Source of the DNA: Campylobacter sp.
Lineage (GTDB): Bacteria; Campylobacterota; Campylobacteria; Campylobacterales; Campylobacteraceae
DNA: 64,000 nt
Reading direction: 5' to 3'
Assembly (NCBI RefSeq): GCF_019423325.1
Contig: NZ_JAHZBQ010000003.1
Coordinates: 138,601-202,600 of the forward strand
Positions within the stretch are counted from its first letter, which is position 1, and every line of letters starts with the position of its first letter. The notes beneath the pieces were generated by a model. That model had not been told where the DNA came from, did no database searches, and saw only the letters and a program-made list of their open reading frames with translations. The position numbers were made by a program, and so were the translations under genes. Shown one piece after another: positions 41,794-59,290 of the stretch.

Positions 41794-42183
41794 CTAATCA
41801 TAGTTAAAGCTATATGGCTTGTAGCCGAAAATATGCAAGGTCTTTAAAGCGAGCTCTCTGACCTCTATCCAGGATTTGTTCTGATATACTAGATAGTCAT
41901 AAGTATCTCCCTCTAGCAAGCTTTGATCTTTAAAGTATCTATCTATGAGCTCCAAAAGTTCTCTTAGCGCATCCCTCTCATATGGCAGGAAGCAAAATTC
42001 AAATTGCTCCAATAAAGCGTTCTTGCATTCGGTATATAGAAATTCTATCATTTCCGATGGGCTTTCGTAATATTCAACCGCAGGATGTATCAAATGATCA
42101 ACTTGATATTCCAAAGAAGCCATACGGCATAGATTAACCATAAGCCCGCTTTTCCTAAATATCTCTTTTCCGTCAATTTGCAT
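41794..42183 (-). CDS. putative toxin-immunity protein, unknown family A (copy 1)
   Basis: 129 aa. About two-thirds identical by eye to the adjacent 42219-42608 product. Shared LCRMASLEYQV ... FEFCFLPYER ... SLLEGDTYDYLVY.NKSW.EVRELALKTL.IFGYKP..FNYD. Confidence 0.55.
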   Translation of the reverse strand: MQIDGKEIFRKSGLMVNLCRMASLEYQVDHLIHPAVEYYESPSEMIEFLYTECKNALLEQFEFCFLPYERDALRELLELIDRYFKDQSLLEGDTYDYLVYQNKSWIEVRELALKTLHIFGYKPYSFNYD

Positions 42184-42218
42184 TTAGGTTTCCTTTTATT
42201 GGGATATAAACTTCATAC

Positions 42219-42608
42219 TCAATCATAGTTGAAGTTTTCTGGTTTGTAGCCGAAAATATACAAAGTCTTCAAGGCTAGCTCTCTGACCTCTACCCATGAT
42301 TTATTGTGATAGACCAAATAATCATAGGTATCTCCCTCTAGCAGGCTGTTATCTCTAAAATATTTATGAATAAGATCCGCAAGTTCTTTTAAGATCTCTC
42401 TTTCATAGGGTAAAAAACAGAATTCAAATTTTCCGTCAAGGGCTCGCTCGCATTGGCTACATAGTACTTCTGCCATCTCCGATGGATCTTCGTAGTATTC
42501 AGCCGTAGCATGCACCAAATAATTGACTTGATATTCTAAAGAAGCCATGCGGCATAGCGAATATAGCAATGGAGCTTTATAATATATACTTTCTTCATTC
42601 ATTTGCAT
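42219..42608 (-). CDS. putative toxin-immunity protein, unknown family A (copy 2)
   Basis: 129 aa tandem paralogue of 41794-42183. Confidence 0.55.
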   Translation of the reverse strand: MQMNEESIYYKAPLLYSLCRMASLEYQVNYLVHATAEYYEDPSEMAEVLCSQCERALDGKFEFCFLPYEREILKELADLIHKYFRDNSLLEGDTYDYLVYHNKSWVEVRELALKTLYIFGYKPENFNYD

Positions 42609-42701
42609 TTAAATTTCCTTTTATTGGGATGTGGGTTTTGCCCGCATTATATCGTAATATATTTTTAAAATTCTCGCAGAAATTATCATTTTATAAAACT
42701 A

Positions 42702-42974
42702 CTATTTTAAAAGCGTAATTTGTTTTAAAGCCTTTTTCGCGCATCCCCTTAGATCCTCTTCACTTAATGAATCGCCTACCGTATCATCACCCCTCAACTC
42801 TTCGTCTGGTTCGAATTCATCGATGTCCGTAAGAAGTCTATTAAGCGGCTCATAATATTCATCGGGGAAATTTTTATCATTCATAAATTTATCCCAATAT
42901 ATCTTTTCAAATTCAAATACGTCGATTCTGTTTTGCAAAAAATCCTCTATTATTTTTATATATTCCTCTATCAT
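42702..42974 (-). CDS. small acidic protein, colicin-immunity-like (self-protective immunity family) candidate
   Basis: 90 aa. The I..FE.....F.........Y...L......D.FEPD.ELR pattern resembles colicin/CdiI-type immunity proteins as I remember them. Confidence 0.4.
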   Translation of the reverse strand: MIEEYIKIIEDFLQNRIDVFEFEKIYWDKFMNDKNFPDEYYEPLNRLLTDIDEFEPDEELRGDDTVGDSLSEEDLRGCAKKALKQITLLK

Positions 42975-42995
42975 TGACCCTCTTTCGGTATATTT

Positions 42996-43268
42996 TTAAT
43001 CGCCCACCGCTTTAATACTTAGAACCGACCATAGATTACTACCTATATTCACGCCTTCGCATAAATTTTTTATAATTGTTAAGTCGTTAGAAGAAATTTC
43101 TAAATCATATTCATACATTTGAACTAAAAAATCTTCCAGCGCTATACCATATTCTCCAGCCTTAACCAGCTCTTCCAAATAAATTACAAAGTCGCACCGA
43201 CCGACTCCAGCAAATTCATCTTTGTAATTACTGAATAAATTTAAAAATATCAGATCGCCGTATCTCAT
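42996..43268 (-). CDS. small protein, MafI-like immunity candidate
   Basis: 90 aa. The central GEYGIALEDFLVQMYEYDLEIS resembles the MafI-family immunity consensus as I remember it. Confidence 0.35.
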   Translation of the reverse strand: MRYGDLIFLNLFSNYKDEFAGVGRCDFVIYLEELVKAGEYGIALEDFLVQMYEYDLEISSNDLTIIKNLCEGVNIGSNLWSVLSIKAVGD

Positions 43269-43515
43269 TCGCCACTTTTCTTAAATTTATTTCTCATAGC
43301 CGCCCATTTTTAGAATGCAAATTTAACACTACAAATTTCATTCCGTAATGAACTATCTATAAGAATCCGATACTGCCCAATGCTAGTAAGATGATAGAAA
43401 TTCATCAAATATTCTTCCGTCATTTTTCCTCGCTTTAACTATGCTAACGTATATTTTCTTTAAATTCTAAAAATCAAATAAGCGTAGATTGACGCAAACT
43501 CGCCTTTATTAAATT

Positions 43516-44076
43516 TTAGTATAAATCAGACCAAAAAGGCACATACGGGCATTTTCCGACCGGCTTAAGAGGATTTTTACCAAATTCCCTCAAAAAGTAG
43601 TCATATAAATTTTTCCCATAATAAATGATATCGGTATAGTGTATAGATAAGACCGGCGGATCCGGTAATTTAAGACACGGCATATATCTATGAGAATATA
43701 CGGGTATAATCTTAGGCGCAATTTTGGCTACTTCTAGTACAACGGCTCGCTTGCGAGATCCGTCTTCGGGCATCGGACCCCATTTTTGCGTATTCCAATA
43801 GCCCTCGTTTGGGAAAATTTCATCAATAGGATCGTTTTTTAAGTACTCAAAGACGTAGTTCATAGCCCGCTTTATCTCCTTTATATTTTCATCGCTAAAG
43901 TCTCTCCAATTATAAAGTTTTACCGAAATAGGCAATGTATATGATAAAAAATCTCTTAGGCTTTTTGGAAATTTAAACTCATAAATTTGCTCTATTTTGT
44001 CTATTTCGCTCTCTTTCAAACCATCGCTCAATTCTATGCCGCTCTTTTCTAGCAGCTCTTTTATTTGCTTATACAT
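43516..44076 (-). CDS. SMI1/KNR4 (SUKH-1) family protein
   Basis: 186 aa. N-terminal LSDGLKESEIDKIEQIYEFKFPKSLRDFL is the hallmark SUKH/SMI1 opening. Size is typical. Confidence 0.7.
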   Translation of the reverse strand: MYKQIKELLEKSGIELSDGLKESEIDKIEQIYEFKFPKSLRDFLSYTLPISVKLYNWRDFSDENIKEIKRAMNYVFEYLKNDPIDEIFPNEGYWNTQKWGPMPEDGSRKRAVVLEVAKIAPKIIPVYSHRYMPCLKLPDPPVLSIHYTDIIYYGKNLYDYFLREFGKNPLKPVGKCPYVPFWSDLY

Positions 44077-44101
44077 ATTCTATTTTATCCTTATTAGGCT
44101 T

Positions 44102-44470
44102 TTAGTCGTAGTCGAAGTCGTCAAACTCATAACCAAAAATTTGGATTGTTTTTAGAGCTAATTCGCGTAGTTCGCAAAAGGTGCTATTGTGGTATATAAA
44201 ATCTTCATAGTCTGTCATAGAAGCCTTTTCCTCTTCCTCCCAAAATTTTGAATCGCACTCCGTAAATTTATCTAGCATTTTGGCTATCGCTTTACGTTCC
44301 TCTATACTGAAATAAATTTTGTTTGATTCCGCTAGGGCTATTTTACAAGCACTTTCACAATCTTCTATTAAATCTATGCACAACAAATACTTATCAAGCA
44401 TATATTTTTCTTGACACTCTAATGAGGCAAGGCAGCATAATTCTTTTAATAATCTTTCTTTTATCGACAT
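44102..44470 (-). CDS. putative toxin-immunity protein, unknown family A (divergent copy 3)
   Basis: 122 aa. Shares CLASLECQ near the N-terminus and a C-terminal DYEDFIYHN..F.ELRELALKTIQIFGYEFDDFDYD with the 41794/42219 pair. Confidence 0.5.
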   Translation of the reverse strand: MSIKERLLKELCCLASLECQEKYMLDKYLLCIDLIEDCESACKIALAESNKIYFSIEERKAIAKMLDKFTECDSKFWEEEEKASMTDYEDFIYHNSTFCELRELALKTIQIFGYEFDDFDYD

Positions 44471-44486
44471 TTTATTCTCCTAAATT

Positions 44487-45098
44487 TTATATCCCGTACC
44501 ACTTCGTTACATCCCCCTCTTCGTCGATATCGACCTCTATGTATTTGTATTTATTGTAAAGGCTCGGAATCAAAATTTCGTCATAATATTTTTTGCCGCA
44601 TTCTGCGATAAACATATACATATTATGATGGCACCACCGATTCGGCTCTTCCCAAAAAGCACCGTCTACGCGAGTATAATTTTTTAGAGGTTCGTATGGG
44701 CGAGCTATAAATTTATCTAAATTATAAAAGAAATTTTTTCTTAAAATTTTCCATTCTTCAAATTTTTTCATATTTAAATTTATATTGGCGCTAGTTTTAT
44801 GTTTTATGTCGGTATCTATGAAATTATTTAGATAAAATTGCCCAAATAGCATTATTAAAATATCTCTTACATTATCATCGCATAAATTAAAATTATGAAT
44901 TAATGCACTGGCGATAGAGTCGGTCTCATAGACTTCGGTGCTTTTCATTAGGCTAAACGCCTCAAGCTCATAAAAATCCAGTGGTCTTTTCCCGCTTGCG
45001 GCTTGAAAATCTTTAAAAATCTTAAATCTAAAATCTTCCGCTTCGCTAAAGAAATAGACGTATGGACTTAAATTTAGATTAAGTGCTTTTATTCTCAT
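44487..45098 (-). CDS. hypothetical protein (island gene)
   Basis: 203 aa, AT-rich, co-directional. No family recognised. Confidence 0.45.
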   Translation of the reverse strand: MRIKALNLNLSPYVYFFSEAEDFRFKIFKDFQAASGKRPLDFYELEAFSLMKSTEVYETDSIASALIHNFNLCDDNVRDILIMLFGQFYLNNFIDTDIKHKTSANINLNMKKFEEWKILRKNFFYNLDKFIARPYEPLKNYTRVDGAFWEEPNRWCHHNMYMFIAECGKKYYDEILIPSLYNKYKYIEVDIDEEGDVTKWYGI

Positions 45099-45130
45099 TT
45101 TATACCGTCCAAACTATTGTTTTTCGCATT

Positions 45131-45469
45131 TTAGTATTGTTTTGCATAATAAGCTCTTCCTTGCTGCGTTTCAGTCACGCCAAAGTATTTGCTATTTACA
45201 CTGACCGGCTCATAACTTTTATCATCTCTTAAAATATTTAAAATTTCAGATTTATCACATATCTCTTTCATTTCTGTATCATAACCCCAATTTGAACTAA
45301 ACAATCTTATATAACCTTGCTCGTATAAGAACAATAAAATTTCTTTCGCCACTTTAAGCGAATTGGCAACGTTAATAGAATTTAATTCCCAAACGATCTC
45401 CCATAAAGAGATATAATCGCCATCTTCGACTATTCCCGATAAAATAGTTAAAATCGTCTTTTTATTCAT
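45131..45469 (-). CDS. hypothetical small protein (island gene)
   Basis: 112 aa. No family recognised. Overlaps the upstream gene by 8 nt. Confidence 0.45.
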   Translation of the reverse strand: MNKKTILTILSGIVEDGDYISLWEIVWELNSINVANSLKVAKEILLFLYEQGYIRLFSSNWGYDTEMKEICDKSEILNILRDDKSYEPVSVNSKYFGVTETQQGRAYYAKQY

Positions 45470-45941
45470 TTAAAACCGCATTTCCTTTTAATGGAATTTT
45501 AACTACCGCACCGTCTTTGCTATTTTTAGCACAAGAATCCGGCGTACAATTTTCATAGAAAAATTTGATTTTATAAAAATTCTCATCCCCTGATGCAACT
45601 GCCAATAATAAGCTTTTTATGCGACGAAATCTATCGAAAATATTCGGCTTTGTATCTTCTTGATATTCATACGTTTTAAAACATTCGCTTTTTGCGTCTA
45701 TATCTACGTCGCGCCAACTTCCGTTTAGAAATATATCATTAGAGATAGAAATAATACCTTGCATTATTTCTGGGTCCAACTCTTTATTTTTATAATGCTG
45801 CAAAATCTTTTTTAAATCGGCTTCCAATTTCCAATACTCATCATCGGACCATAGATTATTATCTAAAATCATACCTATGAACGAATTTGCATCATATCTA
45901 TCATCAAATGCGGTATTTCTATAAAAATTTACAAGATTCAT
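45462..45941 (-). CDS. hypothetical protein, unknown family B (copy 2)
   Basis: I prefer the ATG at 45941 (AAAGGA RBS; MNLVNFYRNTAF...), which aligns with the start of the paralogue 45946-46332. Shared Y-R-N, NSF.G, W-S-D..YWKL and ..I.DRF.R.K.L motifs. Confidence 0.5.
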   Translation of the reverse strand: MNLVNFYRNTAFDDRYDANSFIGMILDNNLWSDDEYWKLEADLKKILQHYKNKELDPEIMQGIISISNDIFLNGSWRDVDIDAKSECFKTYEYQEDTKPNIFDRFRRIKSLLLAVASGDENFYKIKFFYENCTPDSCAKNSKDGAVVKIPLKGNAVLNE

Positions 45942-45945
45942 TGCA

Positions 45946-46332
45946 TTAATCCTTTGGAACATACCAAAAACCGCTATTGTCAAGCTTTTCTTTGAATGCG
46001 ATGCTGTTGCAAAGAACCTTTAATCTTTCAAATCTATCATATATGCTAGGCGCCACGCCGTCGCTGTTTTTTGCACACAGCATATTGCTTACATAAATTT
46101 CCGATTTGTCCTCCACGCCGATAACATCATTAAATATTGCTATTATTGCGACGAAAATTTCTCTTGGAAGCGTTTTGTTATGATAAAAGCTCAAAATCTG
46201 CATTAAAGCTTTATCCAACTTCCAATAGTCGCAATCTGACCAAGTTTTTTGATAGATAAATTTTCCGACAAACGAATTGATGCTGAATTTATCAGAATTT
46301 GTTGAATTTCGGTATAAAAGCTCTAAGTCCAT
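45946..46332 (-). CDS. hypothetical protein, unknown family B (copy 1)
   Basis: 128 aa paralogue of the 45462-45941 product. Confidence 0.5.
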   Translation of the reverse strand: MDLELLYRNSTNSDKFSINSFVGKFIYQKTWSDCDYWKLDKALMQILSFYHNKTLPREIFVAIIAIFNDVIGVEDKSEIYVSNMLCAKNSDGVAPSIYDRFERLKVLCNSIAFKEKLDNSGFWYVPKD

Positions 46333-46408
46333 TAATCACCTATCCTTTTTTTCATTTCTTTATTAAATTTAGCCATCTTTATGGCAAATTTTCGTTTATA
46401 AAAATCGA

Positions 46409-46744
46409 TTATTTTTTATTTGATAGCTCTTTAGATAGAATTTCTGAATTGGGATACAATTTTTTCAAAAATTCTATCTCTTCTTGATCTAGCTCATCTA
46501 AAACCTCTTCTATAGGTTTTTCGCTTAAAATTTTTCCATAAACCAAACTCAGCCTTTTATATGCGCGCGGGTTACCGTTCTTTTCAAATTGCCTTATTAT
46601 AGCAATTCTGCACTCTTTTGTTATTTCGGAATCGCCCATAAAAAGATCTTTTATATCGCAAGAGGCGCTTTGCTCTTTATATAGATAAAATATCCACGCA
46701 AATAATATTATAGCGGCGGCAATAAAGTAAATTTTATTTTTCAT
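46409..46744 (-). CDS. membrane-anchored small protein (first gene of the island)
   Basis: 111 aa. N-terminal TM/signal anchor IYFIAAAIILFAWIFYLY. Confidence 0.45.
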   Translation of the reverse strand: MKNKIYFIAAAIILFAWIFYLYKEQSASCDIKDLFMGDSEITKECRIAIIRQFEKNGNPRAYKRLSLVYGKILSEKPIEEVLDELDQEEIEFLKKLYPNSEILSKELSNKK

Positions 46745-46838
46745 GAAAGCTCTTATTCTTGTTATACCTTACTTATTTTTGGCTTTTTAGACATAAACGA
46801 TCAATCATAGAATTTGCCGATTTGATTAGTGATAAAAG

Positions 46839-46914
46839 TGGTGTCCTGCGTTGGATTCGAACCAACGACCCCCTCATTAAAAGTGAGATGCTCTACCTAC
46901 TGAGCTAGCAAGAC
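46839..46914 (-). tRNA. tRNA-Lys (anticodon UUU)
   Basis: Hand-folded, 76 nt. Acceptor GTCTTGC/GCAGGAC, anticodon loop CTTTTAA, T arm GTTGG-TTCGAAT-CCAAC, encoded CCA. Confidence 0.9.
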
Positions 46915-46925
46915 ATCGTAAGAAG

Positions 46926-47002
46926 TGGCGCGACGAATGGGGCTCGAACCCACGACCTCCGCCGTGACAGGGCGGCATTCTAACCAGCTGAACTACCGTC
47001 GC
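46926..47002 (-). tRNA. tRNA-Asp (anticodon GUC)
   Basis: Hand-folded, 77 nt. Acceptor GCGACGG/TCGTCGC, anticodon stem CCGCC/GGCGG with loop CTGTCAC, encoded CCA. Confidence 0.9.
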
Positions 47003-47062
47003 ACCAAAAATCACACTCGCAGCGCAAGTGCTAAAGAAGTATGAAATCCAAGGATTTCAAAA

Positions 47063-47138
47063 TGGTGGTCGCTGTAGGGATCGAACCTGCGACATCCACC
47101 TTGTAAGGGTGGCGCTCTACCAGCTGAGCTAAGCGACC
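47063..47138 (-). tRNA. tRNA-Val (anticodon UAC)
   Basis: Hand-folded, 76 nt. Acceptor GGTCGCT/AGCGACC, anticodon stem CCACC/GGTGG with loop CTTACAA, encoded CCA. One C-A mismatch in the T stem. Confidence 0.88.
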
Positions 47139-47874: not shown

Positions 47875-48945
<1,071 letters not shown>

Positions 48946-49010
48946 AATTTTAATATATTGGCAAAACTTGCTTTTTCTTGACGCCTAATTAAAAGACGGT
49001 TTGAAATTTT

Positions 49011-49040
49011 AACGCTCGTCGGACGGGCGTTAAAATTTTT
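49011..49040 (+). terminator. candidate kdsA terminator hairpin
   Basis: AACGCTCG-TCGGA-CGGGCGTT (one mismatch) followed by AAAATTTTT. Lies 65 nt after the kdsA stop. Confidence 0.35.
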
Positions 49041-49164
49041 ATAATACACGCATGGTTCACACCTAAAAATGTAAAAACATCTGAGCATAAATCGATAGAC
49101 TTATCATTGCCCTTGATCATTGTCTGTTTTACCAAAAAATTCAAACTTTCAAGTTTATAAATTT

Positions 49165-49425
49165 TTAAGCCTTAAATTTAAAAATTTCACCCACCTCGAT
49201 GCCTAAAATTTTTGAAATTTTATAAATATGCTCTAAATTAAAGTGCTTGTCGTAGCGGCAGCTCTCGCAGTTTGAGTAAAACGCGACCGACTTTATATCC
49301 ATACTTAGCGCCATATCCAGCTGGCTCATACCCTTGCTTTCGCGTAGTTTACGGACGTTGGCGGAGATTTGAAGATAAAAATTTTGTATCTCGTCTCCGT
49401 CAAAAAAGGCTAAATTTTCACTCAT
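49165..49425 (-). CDS. XRE-family helix-turn-helix transcriptional regulator
   Basis: 86 aa. HTH_3 pattern NVRKLRESKGMSQLDMALSMDI. Divergent from the Cys-rich peptide gene. Confidence 0.8.
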   Translation of the reverse strand: MSENLAFFDGDEIQNFYLQISANVRKLRESKGMSQLDMALSMDIKSVAFYSNCESCRYDKHFNLEHIYKISKILGIEVGEIFKFKA

Positions 49426-49430
49426 TTTTT

Positions 49431-49443
49431 TATCCTATAGGTA
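49431..49443. promoter_or_regulatory. operator-like half-degenerate palindrome TATCCTATAGGTA
   Basis: Shares the CCTATAGG core with the perfect palindrome at 49486-49499. Lies 6 nt upstream of the XRE start codon. Confidence 0.4.
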
Positions 49444-49485
49444 AAGTAAAAATTAAACTTTATTTGGATAAAATCCGCAAATCTA

Positions 49486-49499
49486 TATCCTATAGGATA
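49486..49499. promoter_or_regulatory. perfect 14-bp palindrome TATCCTATAGGATA (candidate XRE operator)
   Basis: Read directly. Lies 35 nt upstream of the peptide ATG, where a -10 element would be expected. Confidence 0.45.
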
Positions 49500-49533
49500 A
49501 ATAATTAGTAAATTTCTAGAGAAAGGAGAAGAA

Positions 49534-49698
49534 ATGAGTGCCACTATAAATCAATATGAAAAGCTATTCGGCAAAATTATTGAAGTTGTCGCAGGCCGAA
49601 CTTGCGCTTGCTTTTGCTCATGCAGTTGCGGCATGTGCGTATGCTCGTGCCGCGGTCGCAGAAGTGAAAACGACGAAATTGCATGGGAAATATGCTAA
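49534..49698 (+). CDS. 54-aa cysteine-ladder precursor-like peptide (MSATINQYEKLFGKIIEVVAGRTCACFCSCSCGMCVCSCRGRRSENDEIAWEIC)
   Basis: Translated by hand. Missing from the ORF track, apparently because it falls below the track's size cut-off (smallest listed ORF is 60 aa). ATG preceded by GAAAGGAGAAGAA (AGGAG with 7-nt spacing). Cys-free leader-like N-terminus, 8 Cys in 16 residues, TAA stop. Sits 48 nt upstream of a radical SAM/SPASM gene. Confidence 0.7.
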   Translation: MSATINQYEKLFGKIIEVVAGRTCACFCSCSCGMCVCSCRGRRSENDEIAWEIC

Positions 49699-49704
49699 AA
49701 ATTT

Positions 49705-49728
49705 ATCGGCGGACCGAACTCCGCCGAT
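49705..49728 (+). promoter_or_regulatory. intercistronic stem-loop between peptide gene and maturase gene
   Basis: ATCGGCGG-ACCGAACT-CCGCCGAT: a perfect 8-bp GC-rich stem in an AT-rich context. Followed by a T-rich stretch and the AGGA RBS of the maturase. Confidence 0.55.
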
Positions 49729-49746
49729 ACTATTTCAAGGATTTTT

Positions 49747-51156
49747 ATGATTTTTTCAAAATATGGCTTCGCCTTTCATGTAGGTAATGATGTAGCATTA
49801 TATAACTCTTTAAGGATGAAGCCGATCTATTTAAGCGATAACAAATTTAAGAAAATAAAAGAGATTGTTGACAAAAATGTGAAATTATCACAAGACTTAA
49901 AATGCGAAATCGACGAATTGATAAAGTATAAAATTTTAGTCAAAGAGGGCGATGATGAAAAAATTTTAAATTTTGTAAAATCGGTTATTCCTCAACCACA
50001 AATAAACGTATGCTATTTTATTTTAAGCGAACAATGCAATCTGGCTTGTAAATATTGCTTTTTAGGCAACAATAATCAAGAAAAGAGAAAGCGTTTCAAA
50101 AAAGAAAATATGAGTAAGCAAACGGCAATGGATGGAATTTTATTTTTCATAAAACAACTCGAAAGTGCAAATTTCGATGAAAATTCCAAGCCTACCATTT
50201 TATTTTACGGTGGCGAACCACTTTTAAATTTTGAAACACTTGTTTTTATAGTAAATAAAATTAACGAGCTTAAAAAGAGCTGTAAAGTTTTAGAAAAAGT
50301 TGAATTCGACTTGGTCACAAACGGGCTTTTATTAAACAAACAAAGGCTTTTAAAGCTAAACGAACTTGGCGTAAATATCGGTATTTCGATAGATGGTTGT
50401 AATAACGAAACAAATAAAATGCGCGTGGATATCGGCGGAAATTTTGTATTTGAAAAAATTATACAAAAACTTGATTTGGCAAAGTCACTTGGGGTTCCAA
50501 TTTCGCTTTCCGTAACGCTTACGCAAGATAGTATCAAAAATAAAAACGATATGCTTGAGCTTGTCAAGAAATACAATATAAAGGGCTTCGGTTTTAATAT
50601 TTTAATGTCGGATGAGAAGATTTCGGATTTGCACTATCAAAAAACGAGTGAGTTTTTAATCGAAATGTTTAAAGAATTGCGCAAGCTTGGAATTTATGAA
50701 GATAGAATGATGAGAAAGGTAAAATCCTTTGCAAAATCAAGCGTTTATTTTTCGGATTGTGCAGCTACAAGCGGCGGACAGATTGTAATTGCGGCAAACG
50801 GAGATGTGGGAATTTGCCAAGGCTGTTTGTATGATAGAAAATATTTTGTAACGAATGTCTTGGATGAAAATTTTAATCCGACGACCAATGAAATTTGGCA
50901 AAAATTTCGCCATCTCTCGCCGCCCGAAAAGAATGAATGTCAAGAATGTGAAGCTCTTGGCATTTGTGGTGGCGGCTGTCCGATAAGTGCGGCAAACGAA
51001 AAAGTAGGCAATACGATTGATTCTTTGGATAGGAGATTTTGCATTCACGCAAAAGAGAGTCTAAAATTTCTGATCTCAGACCTGCATAGGATCATAACAA
51101 AAGGCGAAAATAGCGAAATTTATGAAAAATGCGAAGTTGATAAGTTAGCGAGATAA
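49747..51156 (+). CDS. radical SAM / SPASM-domain peptide-modifying enzyme (maturase-like)
   Basis: 469 aa. CxxxCxxC radical SAM motif CNLACKYC and the GGEPLL SAM-binding motif. Full SPASM signature: C-x13-G-x4-C (CAATSGGQIVIAANGDVGIC), CQECEALGICGGGC (Cx2Cx5Cx3C) and a distal Cys (RRFCIH). About 90 aa precede the SAM cluster, where an RRE/PqqD-like element would sit. Confidence 0.85.
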   Translation: MIFSKYGFAFHVGNDVALYNSLRMKPIYLSDNKFKKIKEIVDKNVKLSQDLKCEIDELIKYKILVKEGDDEKILNFVKSVIPQPQINVCYFILSEQCNLACKYCFLGNNNQEKRKRFKKENMSKQTAMDGILFFIKQLESANFDENSKPTILFYGGEPLLNFETLVFIVNKINELKKSCKVLEKVEFDLVTNGLLLNKQRLLKLNELGVNIGISIDGCNNETNKMRVDIGGNFVFEKIIQKLDLAKSLGVPISLSVTLTQDSIKNKNDMLELVKKYNIKGFGFNILMSDEKISDLHYQKTSEFLIEMFKELRKLGIYEDRMMRKVKSFAKSSVYFSDCAATSGGQIVIAANGDVGICQGCLYDRKYFVTNVLDENFNPTTNEIWQKFRHLSPPEKNECQECEALGICGGGCPISAANEKVGNTIDSLDRRFCIHAKESLKFLISDLHRIITKGENSEIYEKCEVDKLAR

Positions 51157-51301
51157 TCCGTTATATAAATTTGCCGACTTTAATGTTTTACTTGACCCAA
51201 CCTTAATTCGAAATAGACACTAATTCTAGGTGCTGCTATCTGCAAGAGCTCATCATATATTTTATCTAAAATTTTGCTTCTTAATGCTAAAATAAATTCT
51301 T

Positions 51302-51378
51302 GACCTTTTCGTCTAGTGGCTCAGGACGTTGCATTCTCAGTGCGAAAACGCGTGGTTCAAATCCCGCAAGGGTCGCCA
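51302..51378 (+). tRNA. tRNA-Glu-like (anticodon CUC) with a bulged T stem
   Basis: Hand-folded, 77 nt. Acceptor GACCTTT/AAGGGTC. The D arm TCGTCTAGTGGCTCAGGAC is Glu-like. Anticodon stem TTGCA/TGCGA with loop TTCTCAG. The T arm GCG(T)GG-TTCAAAT-CCCGC needs one bulged T. Encoded CCA. Confidence 0.65.
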
Positions 51379-52210: not shown

Positions 52211-52914
52211 AAGATAGCTCCGATTTTAACAGATACGCACGCCAGCACGAACGCCAAAAACGAGGCCTCCGAGACGCCCAAACCATCGCGACATTCGTAA
52301 AATAGCCTACCGCAAAACCCTCGCGCGCTCATTACCATGCTTAAATTCCTTGCCTGCTCAAGCGCCGAAATCGCTAAAATCCCGATCAAATTCGCATAAA
52401 TTTTATAGGTAAAAATTCCGCTCGTCCCTACAAATCCGCGCATGCGCAAAAGTGCTTGCAGTCTCGCCAGATCCGAGCGTAAAAAATTTACGAATCGCCC
52501 ACAGCAATACACCAAAGCGCTTAGCTTTTCGCCGAGCCCGAGCCCGTAAAATCCGCGCGCGAAAAAATATTCGTCTTTGCCGTAAAATAGCAAAATTGCA
52601 AACGCCATTATCAAATTCGCGCGCAAAAATATCACGCCCGCAAGCTCGTAGTTGCCGACTATGGCGGGGCTTAACGCGCTTAAAATCGCAAAGATATTTA
52701 ATACCGCAAGCCTTGTGCAGACCGCGCGTGCAATCGAAATTTTAAGCGCAAAAAGAAGTAGCGGCGGGGCAAAAAACGCCGCGTAAAGCTGCCCGCTAAA
52801 TCCGACGCCGAAGCTGAAGATGAAAAACGCGAGCAGTGATACGGCGGAGCTCATTTGCGCGCTCTTTTCGCTAGCCACATTAAGCCAAAAAAGCCGAAAA
52901 TCAAGGCCAAACAA
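52207..52914 (-). CDS. ECF transporter transmembrane T-component (NikQ/CbiQ)
   Basis: 235 aa, polytopic. Contains the ALEQARNLSMVMSARGF region typical of CbiQ/EcfT. Confidence 0.7.
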   Translation of the reverse strand: MFGLDFRLFWLNVASEKSAQMSSAVSLLAFFIFSFGVGFSGQLYAAFFAPPLLLFALKISIARAVCTRLAVLNIFAILSALSPAIVGNYELAGVIFLRANLIMAFAILLFYGKDEYFFARGFYGLGLGEKLSALVYCCGRFVNFLRSDLARLQALLRMRGFVGTSGIFTYKIYANLIGILAISALEQARNLSMVMSARGFCGRLFYECRDGLGVSEASFLAFVLACVSVKIGAIL

Positions 52915-53492
52915 AGCGCGATTTTAGGCGCCTCGGCGGACTGGCTTTGAAACGCCAGGCTCCTAATATCACTCTTAGAGCTTTCTTTCGGCAAGATGCT
53001 TTGCGAGGCGGAATTTTTCAAAGGCTCGGAAGCACTTGAAATTTTATCTTCAGACACACTGCCTTTCGGCGCGATATTTTCGGACGCGCTGTCTTTGGAC
53101 GCGAAATTTTTAGCGGCGTTCGAATTTTGCGGCATAGGATTTTCAGAAACGTCAGAATTTTGAGGCGTGGAATTTTCAGGATCACCGGAATCCTGCGGCG
53201 TAAAGCCTTCGGCGCTAAATTCCATCTGTGTGCCGTGCCCTGCACCTCCGTAAATTTGAATAGTAAAATTTTTAGCTGGCATTCGTATGCTCGCAAGTCC
53301 CTCTTTATCGGTCCTAGTGCGTAAAATTTCGCGCCCGTCCACACTGATTAAAACTTCGCACTCCATGCAGGGAGAATTTTTATAAAAATAGCTATAAATC
53401 GCCACTCTATCGCCCTCTTGCGTCGCGAAAAGATGAAGCGCATGCGAAAATGCGAAGGAGCTCAAAACCGCTAAGAAAAATAGCGCTCTCAT
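52851..53492 (-). CDS. bitopic accessory component, NikL-like candidate
   Basis: 213 aa. Signal peptide/TM, a beta-rich domain of ~90 aa, a low-complexity Ser/Asn/Pro linker, and a C-terminal TM anchor. Its position between the M and Q genes matches the NikKMLQO layout. Start and overlap with nikQ are uncertain. Confidence 0.45.
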   Translation of the reverse strand: MRALFFLAVLSSFAFSHALHLFATQEGDRVAIYSYFYKNSPCMECEVLISVDGREILRTRTDKEGLASIRMPAKNFTIQIYGGAGHGTQMEFSAEGFTPQDSGDPENSTPQNSDVSENPMPQNSNAAKNFASKDSASENIAPKGSVSEDKISSASEPLKNSASQSILPKESSKSDIRSLAFQSQSAEAPKIALCLALIFGFFGLMWLAKRARK

Positions 53493-57020: not shown

Positions 57021-57794
57021 GTGCGAAAGCCTTACAAAAACCCAAATTCTAACGCCCGATTCGCAGCCACTGGGTCTTGCGCGGAAAAATTTAAAAAGCG
57101 CGGCGTTAAATTTTTCGTGCTGCAAAACACAGGATTTTTTGCAACAAAATTTGGTAGCACGAAATTTTGCGGCGCAGAGCCCGGGGCACACGATGCCAAG
57201 CTTCGCGGTTTTAAATTTTGCAATGAAACGCTTCGTCATACGCGACAAATTCGGCAATCACGACACTCGCATTTTAAATTTCACGACGAGAAATTTAATG
57301 GCGCGAAATTTGCGACCTGCGGAACAAGATTTTTAGGGGCGAACTTTCGCGGCGTGGAATTCTGCAAATCAAAATTTATGGCACGCGGCGTCAAATTTTA
57401 CAAAGCAGAATTGCGCGAGACGGGTTTTTTAACTCGCACTGCAGAATTGTACGGCACAAAATTTCACGAGATGAAGTTCCAGACGCTAAATTTAGAGCTT
57501 AAAATGAAATTTAGCGAAGCGAAATTCGGCGAGGTAAAATTCCGCGATGGCGCGCTTTTAAAATTTGCCGCCGCAAAAGGGCTGCGACGCAGTCCTAGCC
57601 TTTGTGTCGCCATACCCTTTAAATTTACCGCGCTGCAAAACGCGGGATTTTTTGCAACAAAATTTGACGAAGCGGAATTTTGCGGCGTAAAATTTTATAA
57701 AGCAAGATTGCGCCGCGCAAAATTTTATGCTGCAGAATTTGCGGCGAAGGGCGAGAAATTTTGCGGCATGAAACGGCGCGGAGCGGGCGCGTGA
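57021..57794 (+). CDS. pentapeptide-repeat-like protein (Phe/Leu at ~5-residue periodicity)
   Basis: 257 aa. Runs such as GANFRGVEFCKSKFMARGVKFYKAELRETGF. Internal duplication (LQNTGFFATKFGSTKFCGA / LQNAGFFATKFDEAEFCGV). The TGA overlaps the nadD GTG (GTGA). Confidence 0.4.
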   Translation: MRKPYKNPNSNARFAATGSCAEKFKKRGVKFFVLQNTGFFATKFGSTKFCGAEPGAHDAKLRGFKFCNETLRHTRQIRQSRHSHFKFHDEKFNGAKFATCGTRFLGANFRGVEFCKSKFMARGVKFYKAELRETGFLTRTAELYGTKFHEMKFQTLNLELKMKFSEAKFGEVKFRDGALLKFAAAKGLRRSPSLCVAIPFKFTALQNAGFFATKFDEAEFCGVKFYKARLRRAKFYAAEFAAKGEKFCGMKRRGAGA

Positions 57795-59290
57795 AGATCG
57801 CGCTTTTCGGCGGCAGTTTCGATCCGCCGCATGCAGGACACGACGCCGCGGTAAAGGCGATTTTATCAAGCCTAAAGCCCGATTTGCTGGTAATAATGCC
57901 GTCGTTTTTAAACCCGTTTAAAAAGAGCTTTTCGGCGCCGCCGCAGCTGCGGCTTAGATGGTGCCGCGCGCTGTGGAGCGACGCCCCGCACGTGGAGGTA
58001 AGCGATTATGAAATTTCGCAAAACGTGCCGGTACCCACGATACAAAGCGTGAAATTTCTGCTCGAAAAATACGGCGGAAACGGCAAAATCGCGGCAGAGA
58101 CGGCAGCCTCGACGAGCGAAACCCCGACAGCCGTAACGGATAGGGCTTTATCTAACGGCGCAAATATTGCGAATAAAATTTCTGCCGGTGCTTATACTCC
58201 TGGCAGTGCAGACGAAATTTTACCCGAGAAGACGGACGGGGCTTTGTCGTGCGGCATAGCTAAAATTTCAAGCGACGATGCCTGCACCGCCGTTAATACG
58301 GATAGAGTAAGTATCTCCGCCAACGCAAAAAACAAAATTCTGCAAGGCAGCGTGGCAGATAAAATTTTGATCTGCGATGGAAGTGAAACAAAGGGGATTT
58401 CGCAAAGCACGGTGAGTGGAATTTCGGGCGGCTGCAAAAGTAATGCGGGCGGTGCAAACGACGTAAGCAAAATTTTAAGTGCAGATGCGAGCGAAATCAC
58501 AAATGCAAGCGTAATTTCAAGCCCCGTTGCAAGCGAAATTTCAAGCAGCAATGCAAATTGCATTGCTGATACAGGCGATATAAATGACGCAAATAGTGCA
58601 GGTGACACAGGCGGCGCAGATGACGCGAGCGATGTGCGCGATGTGAGCAGTGCAGATGAAGCAAGCAAAGCAAATAGTGCAAGCGGCACAGATACAATCT
58701 CAAAGCTCTACATCGTCGTGGGCGCCGACAACCTAGCAGAGCTTCATAAATGGCGCGATTTTAGCGAGCTGCAAAAATTGGCGGAGTTTGTAGTGCTTAC
58801 TAGACCTGGCTACGAGATCCCGCGGCAGTGGGCGGCTCTAAGGCGCATCGAGATTGCCGTAGATGCGAGCTCAAGCGGTTTTAGGCGAGATTTCAAAGGC
58901 GAAATCCCACCCAAGATCGCAGCAGAGGTCATAAAATTTTATAAAAGGAAAGATATGCAAGATCCAAAGCAGAGGGCGGAAAAGATCGCCGAAATTTTAA
59001 ACGAAAAGAAAGCCGAAGACGTCCAGATCATCGATATGGAAGGGCGCGAATATATCGCGAAATTCGTGGTTATCGCCACTATGCTAACCTCCCGCCACGC
59101 AGCCTCGCTTATCGAGGAGCTAAAAAGCGTGCTTAAGCCGCTTGGGGAGGAGTTTTTGGCTATCGAAAGCGGCGATGAGTGGAGCGTCGTCGATCTCGGC
59201 GATATCATAGTCCATCTCATCAGCGAGGCTTACCGCGCCAAATACAATATCGAGGACTTCCTCGACAAACTCAAAAAAGAGCAATTTTAA
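57791..59290 (+). CDS. nadD: nicotinate-nucleotide adenylyltransferase with ~200-aa low-complexity insert, reading frame continuous with rsfS
   Basis: VKIALFGGSFDPPHAGH (GxFxPxHxGH) from the GTG at 57791. C-terminal half is KLYIVVGADNLAELHKW...ISSS-like. Residues ~106-314 of the track ORF are Ser/Ala/Asp/Asn-rich. There is no stop before the rsfS domain. Confidence 0.8.
   Translation: MKIALFGGSFDPPHAGHDAAVKAILSSLKPDLLVIMPSFLNPFKKSFSAPPQLRLRWCRALWSDAPHVEVSDYEISQNVPVPTIQSVKFLLEKYGGNGKIAAETAASTSETPTAVTDRALSNGANIANKISAGAYTPGSADEILPEKTDGALSCGIAKISSDDACTAVNTDRVSISANAKNKILQGSVADKILICDGSETKGISQSTVSGISGGCKSNAGGANDVSKILSADASEITNASVISSPVASEISSSNANCIADTGDINDANSAGDTGGADDASDVRDVSSADEASKANSASGTDTISKLYIVVGADNLAELHKWRDFSELQKLAEFVVLTRPGYEIPRQWAALRRIEIAVDASSSGFRRDFKGEIPPKIAAEVIKFYKRKDMQDPKQRAEKIAEILNEKKAEDVQIIDMEGREYIAKFVVIATMLTSRHAASLIEELKSVLKPLGEEFLAIESGDEWSVVDLGDIIVHLISEAYRAKYNIEDFLDKLKKEQF
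58955..59290 (+). CDS. rsfS: ribosome silencing factor RsfS (iojap-like), internal start in frame with nadD
   Basis: MQDPKQRAEKIAEILNEKKAEDVQIIDM...FVVIAT..S.RH......E.......GDEWSVVDLGDIIVHL. AAAGGAAAG RBS before the ATG at 58955. Confidence 0.75.
   Translation: MQDPKQRAEKIAEILNEKKAEDVQIIDMEGREYIAKFVVIATMLTSRHAASLIEELKSVLKPLGEEFLAIESGDEWSVVDLGDIIVHLISEAYRAKYNIEDFLDKLKKEQF

What the first reader, a model, noticed from the sequence alone, without database searches (positions are those of the whole stretch)
49534..49698. Peptide architecture: Cys-free leader ending VVAG, strictly alternating Cys core, basic collar and acidic tail ending in Cys
Read directly from the sequence.
- Leader: residues 1-21 contain no Cys, look amphipathic, and end in V-V-A-G, reminiscent of Gly-Gly/Gly-Ala leader cleavage sites.
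- Core: residues 24-39 hold 8 Cys in 16 positions (C-A-C-F-C-S-C-S-C-G-M-C-V-C-S-C).
- Flanks: the core is bracketed by R22 and R40-G-R-R. An acidic tail (SENDEIAWEI) follows and ends in a ninth Cys at the C-terminus.

Possible roles:
- a densely thioether-bridged (sactionine/ranthionine-like) ladder, although very few acceptor residues lie between the cysteines
- a metallothionein-like metal or Fe-S chelating peptide, since the spacing recalls CxC metallothionein motifs and a Ni/Co importer operon lies 300 bp downstream
- a substrate for Cys oxidation or conversion

The Cys codons make the core a local GC-rich patch inside an AT-rich islet. This also creates the misleading out-of-frame Ala-rich ORF listed in the track.
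Basis: seen in the sequence. Interest (0 to 1): 0.85.

Follow-up and report, generated by a model that had tools for sequence, protein, structure and literature searches.

The report
Divergent FibroRumin radical-SAM peptide precursor
The 54-residue cysteine-rich ORF is a real gene under purifying selection: an unusual, stripped-down copy of the catalogued but chemically uncharacterised 'FibroRumin' peptide family, sitting with its radical-SAM maturase on a small foreign DNA islet in an uncultured Campylobacter.

Summary
Window 49534-49698(+) encodes MSATINQYEKLFGKIIEVVAGRTCACFCSCSCGMCVCSCRGRRSENDEIAWEIC, with 8 Cys in 16 core positions. The alternation breaks once, at C32-G-M-C35.

It is not a new kind of element. 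The next gene (49747-51156) scores 661 bits against NCBIfam TIGR04136, the FibroRumin radical-SAM maturase (cut-off 400). The peptide matches the precursor model TIGR04135 over its full length, but at 36.4 bits it falls below the 45-bit cut-off.

Across 14 Campylobacter copies, core pN/pS is 0.04 and all nine Cys are invariant. The overlapping Ala-rich ORF is spurious (pN/pS 0.74, with a stop in one copy).

Canonical loci (84 examined) carry two precursor types, the maturase, and in 65 of the 76 censused loci an Ecm16-like UvrA paralogue. The window has one precursor with a Cys spacing seen nowhere else, an XRE regulator with paired palindromes, no second precursor and no UvrA paralogue.

Double-glycine processing and a link to the Ni/Co transporter are not supported.

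The likeliest mechanism is leader-guided radical cross-linking of the Cys core into thioethers. This is inferred; the family's chemistry is unpublished in the library searched. Verdict: new variant of a known kind, moderate interest.

The parts
49165..49425 (-). 86-aa XRE/Cro-type helix-turn-helix regulator, transcribed divergently from the precursor
   Evidence: Pfam HTH_3 at 24.5 bits. The best PADLOC hit is the restriction-modification 'Control_protein' at 33.6 bits. It is present in all Campylobacter copies with pN/pS 0.14. It shows no detectable similarity to the HTH_3 gene upstream of the related loci L093-L095.
49432..49441 (.). Palindromic decamer ATCCTATAGG, copy 1. Candidate operator; it overlaps the regulator's own ribosome-binding site.
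   Evidence: The decamer occurs only twice in the 64-kb window, both times in the 108-bp intergenic region. It is invariant in 13 related copies. The operator role is inferred.
49486..49499 (.). Extended palindrome TATCCTATAGGATA, copy 2. Candidate operator about 35 nt upstream of the precursor ATG.
   Evidence: The core decamer starts at 49487 and is invariant in all copies. The operator role is inferred.
49523..49529 (+). Ribosome-binding site AAGGAGA, 5 nt before the ATG
   Evidence: Read from the sequence. Conserved in the related copies.
49534..49602 (+). Precursor codons 1-23: Cys-free leader carrying the family motif Y8-x-x-L-F-G13-x-I15
   Evidence: The motif [YF]xx[LMI][FLYQ][GD]x[IVL] is present in 33 of 35 type-A and 28 of 28 type-B precursors. 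The leader aligns to the type-A profile. Leader pN/pS is 0.73.
49603..49650 (+). Precursor codons 24-39: Cys core CACFCSCSCGMCVCSC (8 Cys, gaps 1,1,1,1,2,1,1)
   Evidence: All Cys are invariant and carry TGC/TGT synonymous changes. Core codons 22-43 have pN/pS 0.04. This spacing is absent from 110 distinct family precursors.
49651..49698 (+). Precursor codons 40-54 plus stop: R40 (a family-conserved basic residue after the last core Cys), a lineage-specific GRR, the acidic tail SENDEIAWEI containing the family Trp, a lineage-specific C-terminal Cys54, and TAA
   Evidence: The tail motif [DE]x[x]W is present in 33 of 35 type-A and 25 of 28 type-B peptides. The distance from the last core Cys to Trp is 12, against 10-13 in the family. 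Only 1 of 110 other precursors ends in Cys.
49704..49729 (+). 10-bp GC-rich hairpin between precursor and maturase. Candidate partial terminator or processing site that could set the precursor-to-enzyme ratio.
   Evidence: Consensus scan. RNA fold -19 kcal/mol, z -4.2, with 0 of 200 shuffles folding as well. Substitutions among relatives fall in the loop, apart from one stem change in the decaying sub-lineage. The function is inferred.
49747..51156 (+). 469-aa radical-SAM/SPASM peptide maturase (FibroRumin type)
   Evidence: TIGR04136 at 661 bits against a cut-off of 400. C97/C101/C104 and eight SPASM Cys are all conserved. The AF2 model has pLDDT 82.8, with full-length Foldseek matches to TigE 8VPO, CteB 5WHY/5WGG and anSME. 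pN/pS is 0.10.
48946..51301 (.). AT-rich islet (about 30-39% GC) holding the three genes, between kdsA and tRNA-Glu(CTC)/cbiO. Probably acquired horizontally.
   Evidence: Composition profile. tRNA call. The nearest maturase relatives outside the lineage are only 60-63% identical, and those homologues that carry a source name are almost all Firmicutes (Clostridia, Bacillus), plus one Atopobium. The islet lies at the same place in every Campylobacter contig recovered.

Best explanation
The ORF is the single precursor peptide of a reduced, divergent FibroRumin-type RiPP system. The unit is XRE regulator, precursor, hairpin and radical-SAM/SPASM maturase, carried on a horizontally acquired islet in an uncultured Campylobacter lineage.

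Proposed mechanism:
1. The regulator binds the two ATCCTATAGG palindromes and controls the divergent promoters.
2. The precursor is transcribed in excess over the maturase because of the intervening hairpin.
3. The maturase's N-terminal RRE-like domain docks the leader, through the conserved Y-x-x-L-F-G-x-I motif.
4. The enzyme's radical-SAM cluster and two auxiliary clusters then perform Cys-directed radical chemistry on the C-x-C core. The most likely outcome is several short-range S-C thioether cross-links that lock the core into a compact polycyclic peptide.
5. The acidic Trp-containing tail is a second conserved element, serving either as a recognition element or as a source of acceptor residues.

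Shown here: the reading frame, purifying selection, family homology of both genes, the enzyme's architecture, and the derived gene content.

Inferred: the regulator-operator pairing, the hairpin's function, leader docking, the chemistry (my estimate is about 45-50% for thioethers) and the biological role.

The confidence of 0.8 refers to the statement 'functional precursor and maturase pair of the FibroRumin family, in a derived and reduced form'.
For: Family assignment:
- Maturase: TIGR04136, 661 bits against a cut-off of 400.
- Peptide: TIGR04135, E 3.8e-9 across the full profile.
- My own type-A precursor profile gives 40.1 bits, against at most 10.6 for 1000 shuffles.
- The 98%-identical cluster representative P0001 carries the Pfam PF27848 FibroRuminTarg tag.
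- The precursor ends 48 nt before the maturase ATG on the same strand, as in 80 or more related loci.

Evidence that it is real and functional:
- 14 copies in 9 haplotypes give core pN/pS 0.04, with every Cys kept and TGC/TGT swaps present.
- Maturase pN/pS is 0.10 and regulator pN/pS is 0.14.
- All 3 + 8 Fe-S ligand Cys are conserved.

Enzyme architecture:
- The AF2 model (pLDDT 82.8) has an N-terminal three-strand, three-helix module, then a radical-SAM barrel and a SPASM domain.
- The best structural matches are full-length TigE, CteB and anSME.
- CteB uses its RRE to bind the leader, and an open Fe of an auxiliary cluster contacts a substrate Cys (PMC8326336).

Basis for a thioether product:
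- The closest characterised families by profile are PapB ranthipeptide maturase (118.6 bits), anSME (114.4), CefB (95.8) and SCIFF maturase (95.4). By their names and annotations all of these concern Cys-rich or Cys-containing substrates.
- Short-range thioether rings have precedent: CteA Cys32-Thr34 and the enteropeptin thiomorpholine.

Regulatory elements.
Against: - The peptide scores below NCBIfam's curated cut-off (36.4 against 45 bits).
- Its Cys register matches none of 110 family precursors.
- The type-B partner peptide and the UvrA paralogue, present in nearly all canonical loci, are missing. The product may therefore differ in kind from the canonical one.
- One sub-lineage shows decay: Q260* and P158L in the GGEP motif.
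- No member of the family has a published structure or activity in the library searched, so the chemistry is argued only from relatives at about 20% identity.
- Those relatives include non-thioether enzymes: TigE (a cyclopropyl synthase, from my own knowledge) and anSME.
- No protease or exporter is visible, so it is unknown whether the leader is removed or the product leaves the cell.
Confidence: 0.8

Rival explanations
1. The maturase carries out Cys-directed chemistry other than thioether cross-linking. Examples are anSME-like oxidation of Cys to formylglycine or a thioaldehyde, Cys-Trp or C-C cross-links involving the invariant tail Trp, or an unprecedented transformation of the C-x-C lattice.
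For: anSME scores almost as high as PapB against the maturase (114.4 against 118.6 bits) and is a top structural match. The best structural match, TigE, is not a thioether synthase (its function is from my own knowledge). The tail Trp is nearly invariant across both precursor types.
Against: The Cys density (7-9 per core) and its invariance fit the donor role seen in sacti- and ranthipeptides. Any residue's C-alpha can act as an acceptor, and i+1 or i+2 rings are known. Nothing here distinguishes the options directly.
Confidence: 0.25
2. The peptide is a metallothionein-like or Fe-S/metal-chelating peptide, functionally tied to the neighbouring Ni/Co ECF importer. The C-x-C core acts as the metal ligand set, with or without maturation.
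For: C-x-C and C-x-x-C motifs resemble metallothionein spacing (sequence). A CbiM/NikL/CbiQ/CbiO operon and a DUF4198 gene lie nearby.
Against: The transporter operon is convergent, has host GC, and is separated from the islet by a tRNA gene. In a census of 76 distant family loci, no metal-transport gene recurs, whereas the radical-SAM maturase is always adjacent. The peptide has no Pfam metallothionein hit. Its leader and tail architecture is that of an enzyme substrate.
Confidence: 0.07
3. The system is a decaying remnant. After losing the type-B precursor and the UvrA-like partner, the Campylobacter copy no longer makes a functional product.
For: It lacks two components found in nearly all canonical loci. 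One sub-lineage carries a nonsense codon (Q260*) and P158L in the invariant GGEP motif, together with a leader I16D change.
Against: Purifying selection is strong at appreciable divergence (pS 0.07-0.18): core pN/pS 0.04, maturase 0.10, regulator 0.14. The ribosome-binding site, hairpin and palindromes are conserved. The maturase is intact in every complete Campylobacter copy except the one contig ERZ773003.843 (L004 = L012).
Confidence: 0.08
4. The peptide is a secreted bacteriocin of the double-glycine-leader type. It is cleaved after V-V-A-G21 by a C39 peptidase-ABC exporter to release RTCAC...EIC.
For: A-G at residues 20-21 follows hydrophobic residues.
Against: The aligned family position is M-A-[RK], with no Gly. 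A20V occurs in natural variants. No C39 or ABC exporter is found in the window or in 76 related loci.
Confidence: 0.05

Closest known systems
FibroRumin system (NCBIfam TIGR04136 maturase with TIGR04135 / Pfam PF27848 'FibroRuminTarg' precursors)
   Same: - The maturase is an above-threshold member.
- The precursor sits immediately upstream on the same strand.
- The leader motif Y-x-x-[LM]-[FL]-G-x-I is present.
- The core has a run of C-x-C, followed directly by a basic residue.
- The tail is acidic and carries the conserved Trp.
- The leader-core-tail spacings match the family.
   Different: - One precursor instead of the usual B + A tandem pair.
- Cys spacing 1,1,1,1,2,1,1, against 1,2,2,1,1,1 for type A and 3,2,1,1,1,1 for type B.
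- An extra GRR and a C-terminal Cys.
- The peptide scores below the curated cut-off.
- No Ecm16-like UvrA paralogue downstream.
- A C-protein-like XRE regulator with paired palindromes.
- The host is a Campylobacter, whereas named homologues are almost all Firmicutes, plus one Atopobium.
- The maturase has 15 lineage-specific substitutions at positions at least 95% conserved in the other sequences.
SCIFF / CteB and PapB ranthipeptide systems (thioether-forming radical-SAM/SPASM RiPPs)
   Same: - A minimal pairing of a Cys-rich precursor with one RRE + radical-SAM + SPASM enzyme.
- CteB is among the best sequence and structure matches (83.7 bits; Foldseek E about 4e-18, full length).
- No protease or exporter in the locus.
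   Different: - Only about 21% identity.
- Far below the equivalog cut-offs (118.6 against 340 for PapB; 95.4 against 425 for ScfB).
- Unrelated precursor sequence, with a far denser Cys core and a conserved C-terminal follower region.
- The product is unknown.
Enteropeptin (KgrC) and suisactin-type sactipeptides with very short thioether rings
   Same: They give precedent for radical-SAM thioethers between adjacent or near-adjacent residues. That is the geometry a C-x-C lattice would require (PMC12395415).
   Different: No sequence relationship was tested or claimed. Those peptides have one or two Cys, not eight.
UvrA-like self-resistance proteins (Ecm16, DrrC) in gene clusters for DNA-binding natural products
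   Same: The partner gene of canonical FibroRumin loci aligns almost end to end with Ecm16 (7SH1, 245 bits). At about 710 aa it is some 230 residues shorter than true UvrA, and its alignment to UvrA 3PIH starts only at UvrA residue 266, consistent with absence of the UvrB-binding region. The absence of that specific domain was not tested directly (PMC10192343).
   Different: This gene is absent from the window, so the analogy bears on the family and not on this copy. No RiPP has been linked to a UvrA-like protein in the papers found.

Membership tests
FibroRumin system (NCBIfam TIGR04135/TIGR04136; Pfam PF27848) | Maturase scores above the curated TIGR04136 cut-off | tested here: met
   661 bits against a cut-off of 400, covering profile positions 1-458 of 458.
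FibroRumin system (NCBIfam TIGR04135/TIGR04136; Pfam PF27848) | Precursor scores above the curated TIGR04135 cut-off | tested here: not met
   36.4 bits against a cut-off of 45, although E is 3.8e-9 over the full profile. Canonical type-A and type-B peptides score 55-68 bits. The 98%-identical cluster representative P0001 does carry a precomputed Pfam PF27848 tag.
FibroRumin system (NCBIfam TIGR04135/TIGR04136; Pfam PF27848) | Precursor gene immediately upstream of the maturase, on the same strand | tested here: met
   The stop codon ends at 49698 and the maturase ATG is at 49747. The same arrangement is seen in the related loci.
FibroRumin system (NCBIfam TIGR04135/TIGR04136; Pfam PF27848) | Tandem pair of precursor genes (types B and A), or a fused A+B peptide | tested here: not met
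   The islet has only one precursor. A six-frame profile scan of the whole window finds no other. Nearly all of the 84 distant loci have the pair or a fusion.
FibroRumin system (NCBIfam TIGR04135/TIGR04136; Pfam PF27848) | Family leader motif and acidic Trp-containing tail, at the family's spacings | tested here: met
   both motifs are present. Leader Gly to first core Cys is 11 residues (family 12-13). Last core Cys to Trp is 12 residues (family 10-13).
FibroRumin system (NCBIfam TIGR04135/TIGR04136; Pfam PF27848) | Canonical core Cys register (type A 1,2,2,1,1,1 or type B 3,2,1,1,1,1) | tested here: not met
   The window has 1,1,1,1,2,1,1, which is absent from 110 distinct precursors. A search of 1.84 billion representative proteins finds this core only in its own cluster.
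FibroRumin system (NCBIfam TIGR04135/TIGR04136; Pfam PF27848) | UvrA paralogue directly downstream. This feature comes from my own census and is not part of the curated definition. | tested here: not met
   Present in 65 of 76 distant loci and in L090-L097. Absent from the window: tblastn best E 0.55, and the profile hits only cbiO at 13 bits.
Sactipeptide / ranthipeptide (radical-SAM thioether RiPPs) | Radical-SAM CX3CX2C motif plus a SPASM domain with its full set of Cys ligands | tested here: met
   C97/C101/C104 and C338, 357, 360, 398, 401, 407, 411 and 432 are invariant in 22 sequences. Pfam hits to Radical_SAM, and to SPASM below its gathering cut-off (19.3 against 21.5 bits).
Sactipeptide / ranthipeptide (radical-SAM thioether RiPPs) | N-terminal RRE-type leader-binding domain | tested here: inconclusive
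   The AF2 model shows three strands and three helices in residues 7-79, with pLDDT 80-93. Foldseek alignments to TigE and CteB span 463-476 columns, that is the full length. No dedicated RRE profile was run and no peptide complex was modelled.
Sactipeptide / ranthipeptide (radical-SAM thioether RiPPs) | S-C(alpha/beta/gamma) thioether present in the mature product | not testable with these tools
   This needs MS or NMR of the product.
Sactipeptide / ranthipeptide (radical-SAM thioether RiPPs) | Membership of a characterised maturase equivalog (PapB, ScfB/CteB) | tested here: not met
   PapB 118.6 bits against a cut-off of 340. SCIFF maturase 95.4 bits against a cut-off of 425.
Double-glycine-leader bacteriocins exported by C39 peptidase-ABC transporters | Conserved GG/GA/GS cleavage motif at the end of the leader | tested here: not met
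   A-G is present only in this lineage and varies to V-G. The family consensus at the aligned position is M-A-[RK].
Double-glycine-leader bacteriocins exported by C39 peptidase-ABC transporters | Dedicated C39-peptidase ABC exporter in the locus | tested here: not met
   None in the islet. None among the recurrent neighbours in 76 loci.
Metallothionein-like metal-binding peptides | Sequence membership, or recurrent association with metal-homeostasis genes | tested here: not met
   No Pfam hit for the peptide. No metal-related gene recurs next to the family. The adjacent Ni/Co operon is host backbone on the opposite strand. Metal binding itself was not testable.

The most novel reading that the evidence does not exclude
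The FibroRumin maturase installs a previously undescribed scaffold on the C-x-C lattice, for example a ladder of very small thioether (thiomorpholine-type) rings or another Cys-derived polycycle. The canonical two-peptide product would act on DNA and be countered by the Ecm16-like UvrA paralogue. The Campylobacter copy would be a natural 'minimal' variant whose re-registered eight-Cys core, extra basic collar and terminal Cys give a product with a different target, one that no longer needs the immunity ATPase. If so, this would be a new structural RiPP class, and the family would be the first RiPP family tied to UvrA-like self-resistance.
Probability: 0.15. Interest if true: 0.8.

Novelty: new variant of a known kind. 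Interest (0 to 1): 0.45.

Why it matters
FibroRumin is one of the radical-SAM peptide families that were defined by computation. No product structure, chemistry or biological role for it could be found in the 8 million papers searched.

This window offers the simplest natural version of the system: one precursor, one enzyme and one regulator. That makes it an attractive minimal pair for heterologous reconstitution to learn what the enzyme does to a C-x-C lattice.

Its departures from the canon form a natural experiment on which parts of the family are essential. These departures are a new Cys register, the loss of the partner peptide and the loss of the UvrA-like ATPase, together with 15 substitutions in the maturase at otherwise conserved positions.

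The census also shows that canonical loci almost always carry an Ecm16-like UvrA paralogue. This gives a testable lead that the family's products act on DNA.

There is also a practical point. Automatic gene callers either missed this precursor or called the wrong overlapping frame, and NCBI's curated cut-off would leave it unnamed.

Tried and rejected
- **Literature.** Searches for 'FibroRumin', TIGR04135/TIGR04136, the core motifs, and radical SAM combined with UvrA, RiPP, Ruminococcus albus or Fibrobacter found nothing about the family. The Fibrobacter acid-tolerance paper only lists unrelated radical-SAM genes. The two radical-SAM reviews and compendia I read do not mention it.
- **Word-index search with the peptide.** It found only the peptide's own cluster. 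Distant precursors had to be reached through the maturase.
- **Islet-free Campylobacter allele.** I looked for one through the exact CbiO protein. Every contig recovered carried the islet, so the insertion borders and the direction of transfer could not be fixed.
- **Shared regulator.** I tested whether the XRE regulator is shared with the relatives that also have a divergent HTH gene (L093-L095). No similarity was detected.
- **Anti-phage defence reading.** PADLOC gave only generic hits: viperin-like for the radical-SAM core, and MADS mad3 for the UvrA paralogue. I rejected this as uninformative.
- **Second precursor, type-B pseudogene or UvrA remnant in the window.** None was found.
- **Ala-rich ORF 49556-49750 as the true gene.** Rejected.
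- **tRNA-Glu(CTC) as the integration site.** The islet lies on the tRNA's 5' side, which is not the usual arrangement. I left this open.
Full report
**1. The observation**

Window 49534-49698(+) translates to MSATINQYEKLFGKIIEVVAGRTCACFCSCSCGMCVCSCRGRRSENDEIAWEIC.
- a Cys-free N-terminal part ending V-V-A-G;
- eight Cys in residues 24-39;
- R22 and R40-G-R-R at the edges of the core;
- an acidic tail ending in Cys54;
- an AAGGAGA ribosome-binding site 5 nt before the ATG;
- an overlapping 64-codon Ala-rich ORF in another frame;
- an AT-rich setting of 30-39% GC, against flanks of about 49-61%.

Two details need correction. First, the alternation is not strict, because C32-G-M-C35 breaks it. 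Second, the Ni/Co transporter genes start 278 bp after the maturase stop rather than after the peptide. They are on the opposite strand, and a tRNA-Glu(CTC) gene lies in between.

The feature is not a chance ORF. It is the only segment in a six-frame scan of the whole window that matches profiles of the family's precursors (39 bits, E 6e-11). Shuffled versions of the peptide reach at most 10.6 bits, against 40.1 for the real sequence.

**2. What it is**

The gene 48 nt downstream (49747-51156, 469 aa) scores 661 bits against NCBIfam TIGR04136, 'FibroRumin system radical SAM peptide maturase', whose cut-off is 400. The peptide hits the partner model TIGR04135, 'FibroRumin family radical SAM-modified Cys-rich RiPP', over the full profile (E 3.8e-9). 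At 36.4 bits, however, it is below the 45-bit cut-off.

Pfam's newer family PF27848 'FibroRuminTarg' is already attached to the 98%-identical cluster representative P0001. The finding is therefore a member of a catalogued family and not a new kind of element.

The window comes from an uncultured Campylobacter lineage seen in many MAGs.

**3. Is the frame real and maintained?**

I compared 14 DNA copies from Campylobacter MAGs and metagenome contigs, which form 9 haplotypes.

| Region | pN/pS |
|---|---|
| Precursor, whole | 0.22 |
| Leader (codons 1-21) | 0.73 |
| Core (codons 22-43) | 0.04 |
| Overlapping Ala-rich ORF | 0.74 |
| Maturase | 0.10 |
| Regulator | 0.14 |

- All nine Cys are invariant.
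- Cys codons 28 and 32 show TGC/TGT synonymous swaps.
- V36I is the only core replacement.
- The overlapping Ala-rich ORF also acquires an in-frame stop in L001, so it is spurious.

One sub-lineage shows decay. In contig ERZ773003.843 the maturase carries Q260* and P158L in the invariant GGEP motif, and the leader carries I16D.

**4. The family, and how this copy departs from it**

A metagenome scan with a maturase alignment, plus look-ups of the nearest homologues, gave 84 distant loci.

Their precursors fall into two classes, normally encoded in tandem (B then A) just upstream of the maturase:
- Type A: MSANxxxYxK[LM]FGxI...VMA[RK]-CACVACNSCTCACSC-R..PE.EEIEW, with Cys gaps 1,2,2,1,1,1.
- Type B: M[IL]xYxxxxYxxMLGNI...-C[IM]SQCTGCMCNCRCSC-SGG...[DE][FV]EWE[VE][IL], with Cys gaps 3,2,1,1,1,1.

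Fused A+B peptides occur in a few loci.

- a Cys-free leader carrying Y-x-x-[LM]-[FL]-G-x-I;
- a run of C-x-C;
- a basic residue after the last core Cys;
- an acidic tail with a near-invariant Trp.

The window peptide is closest to type A (40.1 bits against 25.0 for type B). Its closest resemblance is to the type-A peptides of the nearest maturase relatives, for example MSASINQYAELFGNV...CSCRAIPEMEFEWENI in L014.

It departs from the canon in these ways:
1. It is the only precursor. There is no type-B gene or remnant anywhere in the window.
2. Its Cys register 1,1,1,1,2,1,1 is found in none of 110 distinct family precursors. It is also found in no other cluster among 1.84 billion representative proteins.
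3. It has an extra G-R-R after the core and a C-terminal Cys.
4. The gene that follows the maturase in 65 of the 76 censused loci is absent. It is also present in all the nearest relatives (L090-L097, maturases 60-62% identical). That gene encodes a UvrA paralogue of about 710 aa.
5. An 86-aa XRE regulator similar to restriction-modification control proteins is transcribed divergently. The decamer ATCCTATAGG occurs twice in the intergenic region and nowhere else in 64 kb.
6. The maturase has 15 substitutions at positions at least 95% conserved in the other sequences. They include H8F, Y296H, H358Q, E386K, W387F, N414S and H425D. All Fe-S ligand Cys are retained.

Because all the nearest relatives keep the full canonical set, the Campylobacter form is derived and reduced.

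**5. How it most likely works**

The AF2 model of the maturase (pLDDT 82.8) has three parts. An N-terminal three-strand, three-helix module is followed by the radical-SAM barrel and a SPASM domain.

Foldseek aligns the model over its full length with TigE (8VPO), with 5WHY/5WGG and with anSME. By sequence the closest solved structure is 5WGG, at 83.7 bits. The identification of 5WGG/5WHY with CteB is from my own knowledge; it fits the entry title on thioether bond formation in sactipeptide biosynthesis.

In CteB the RRE binds the leader as a beta-strand. An open iron of an auxiliary cluster contacts a substrate Cys (PMC8326336).

The closest characterised profile families are PapB, anSME, CefB and the SCIFF maturase. 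By their names and annotations all of these concern Cys-rich or Cys-containing substrates.

I therefore propose leader docking through the Y-x-x-L-F-G-x-I motif, followed by radical, Cys-directed cross-linking of the core. Thioethers are the most probable outcome, at about 45-50%. Very short thioether rings have precedent in CteA Cys32-Thr34 and in the enteropeptin thiomorpholine.

The conserved hairpin between the precursor and the maturase (-19 kcal/mol, z -4.2) has substitutions confined to its loop. It plausibly attenuates transcription so that precursor exceeds enzyme. The paired palindromes plausibly serve as the regulator's operators.

All of these mechanistic steps are inferences.

**6. 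Rivals**

- **Other Cys chemistry.** Cys chemistry other than thioethers cannot be excluded (0.25).
- **Metal chelator.** A chelator tied to the Ni/Co importer is unlikely (0.07). The operon is convergent host backbone beyond a tRNA gene. No metal gene recurs next to the family in 76 loci. The peptide has the leader and tail plan of an enzyme substrate.
- **Dead remnant.** This is unlikely given the selection values, although one sub-lineage is decaying (0.08).
- **Double-glycine processing.** This is not supported. The aligned family position is M-A-[RK], A20V occurs naturally, and no C39 exporter is present anywhere (0.05).

**7. Comparison with the known, and novelty**

The system works like the SCIFF/CteB and PapB systems, as a Cys-rich precursor paired with one RRE + radical-SAM + SPASM enzyme. 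It is not a member of those equivalogs (118.6 against 340 bits, and 95.4 against 425).

It is a member of the FibroRumin family by its maturase, and a sub-threshold, re-patterned member by its peptide. The membership table lists which features were met. I rate it a new variant of a known kind.

The family itself appears experimentally unexplored. No paper in the held library contains its name, its accessions or its core motifs. That library does not cover all subscription journals.

**8. A lead from the census**

The partner gene of canonical loci aligns almost end to end with Ecm16 (7SH1, 245 bits). [quoted passage not shown]

By analogy, canonical FibroRumin products may act on DNA. The window's copy has dispensed with this gene, which may mean a changed target. 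This is speculation, but it is directly testable.

**9. Verdict**

The finding is a real, selected and correctly read peptide gene. Its general nature is already catalogued, and the metal and double-glycine readings fail. Interest is moderate (0.45). The value lies in a minimal natural variant of an uncharacterised RiPP family, not in a new category.

Noticed in passing
Related loci L014-L097, e.g. L071 2395-4602(+) and L096 6380-8521(+): Canonical FibroRumin loci almost always carry a UvrA paralogue of about 710 aa directly after, and often overlapping, the maturase gene. This holds for 65 of 76 censused loci and for all the nearest relatives. The paralogue scores 337.7 bits against the UvrA model (cut-off 729.8). 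It has the UvrA DNA-binding domain and aligns nearly full-length with the echinomycin self-resistance protein Ecm16 (7SH1). This suggests a DNA-directed product or an immunity function for the family. Two loci (L076, L085) instead carry a protein combining TPR repeats with a metallo-beta-lactamase fold.
   Followed up: partly
L098, L099, L100: Public gene calls for this Campylobacter islet either omit the precursor altogether (L098, L099) or call the spurious 64-aa out-of-frame Ala-rich ORF instead (L100). NCBIfam's cut-off would also leave the true peptide unnamed.
   Followed up: yes
L004 = L012 (contig ERZ773003.843) and L011: One Campylobacter sub-lineage carries P158L in the maturase's invariant GGEP motif, I16D in the leader, and a G-to-A change in the hairpin stem. 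L004/L012 additionally has a Q260* nonsense codon. The system appears to be decaying there, unless this is an assembly error.
   Followed up: partly
window 51302-51378 (+): A tRNA-Glu gene with anticodon CTC lies between the maturase and the convergent cbiO. It is identical in all related Campylobacter contigs checked. The islet lies on its 5' side, so it is not an obvious integration target. I did not determine whether the tRNA belongs to the islet or to the host.
   Followed up: partly
window about 41800-46800 (- strand genes); tRNA cluster 46839-47138 (-): A second AT-rich island (about 30-37% GC) abuts the 3' end of a tRNA-Lys/Asp/Val cluster. It is packed with small, partly paralogous genes, for example two 129-aa paralogues at 41794-42183 and 42219-42608. 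Two of its genes are tagged Pfam Imm41 in the L098 gene table. It looks like an array of orphan polymorphic-toxin immunity genes.
   Followed up: no
window 47905-48945 (+), 52851-53492 (-), 57761-59290 (+): Several housekeeping proteins carry long low-complexity inserts rich in Ala, Ser, Gln and Asn. KdsA has an insert of roughly 100 residues splitting the profile match in two. The NikL-like ECF subunit has a repetitive 'PQNS/ENxxPK' middle. The NadD-RsfS fusion protein has an insert of about 190 residues. These GC-rich inserts seem to be a trait of this Campylobacter lineage.
   Followed up: no
P0147 / L101 243-635(+); L016, L034, L039, L077, L086, L089: Core modules in the family are shuffled naturally. 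Some loci encode single peptides that fuse an A-type and a B-type core behind one leader. P0147 is a 130-aa ORF with a complete A peptide followed by a complete B peptide, which is the reverse of the usual gene order.
   Followed up: no
L093 2887-3025: In a distant FibroRumin locus that has an unrelated divergent HTH_3 regulator, the intergenic region also holds paired CCTA...TAGG-type inverted repeats (CCTAAATATAGG and CCTATATTTAGG) around a TTGACA/TATAAT promoter. These resemble the window's ATCCTATAGG sites, although the two regulators show no detectable similarity.
   Followed up: no
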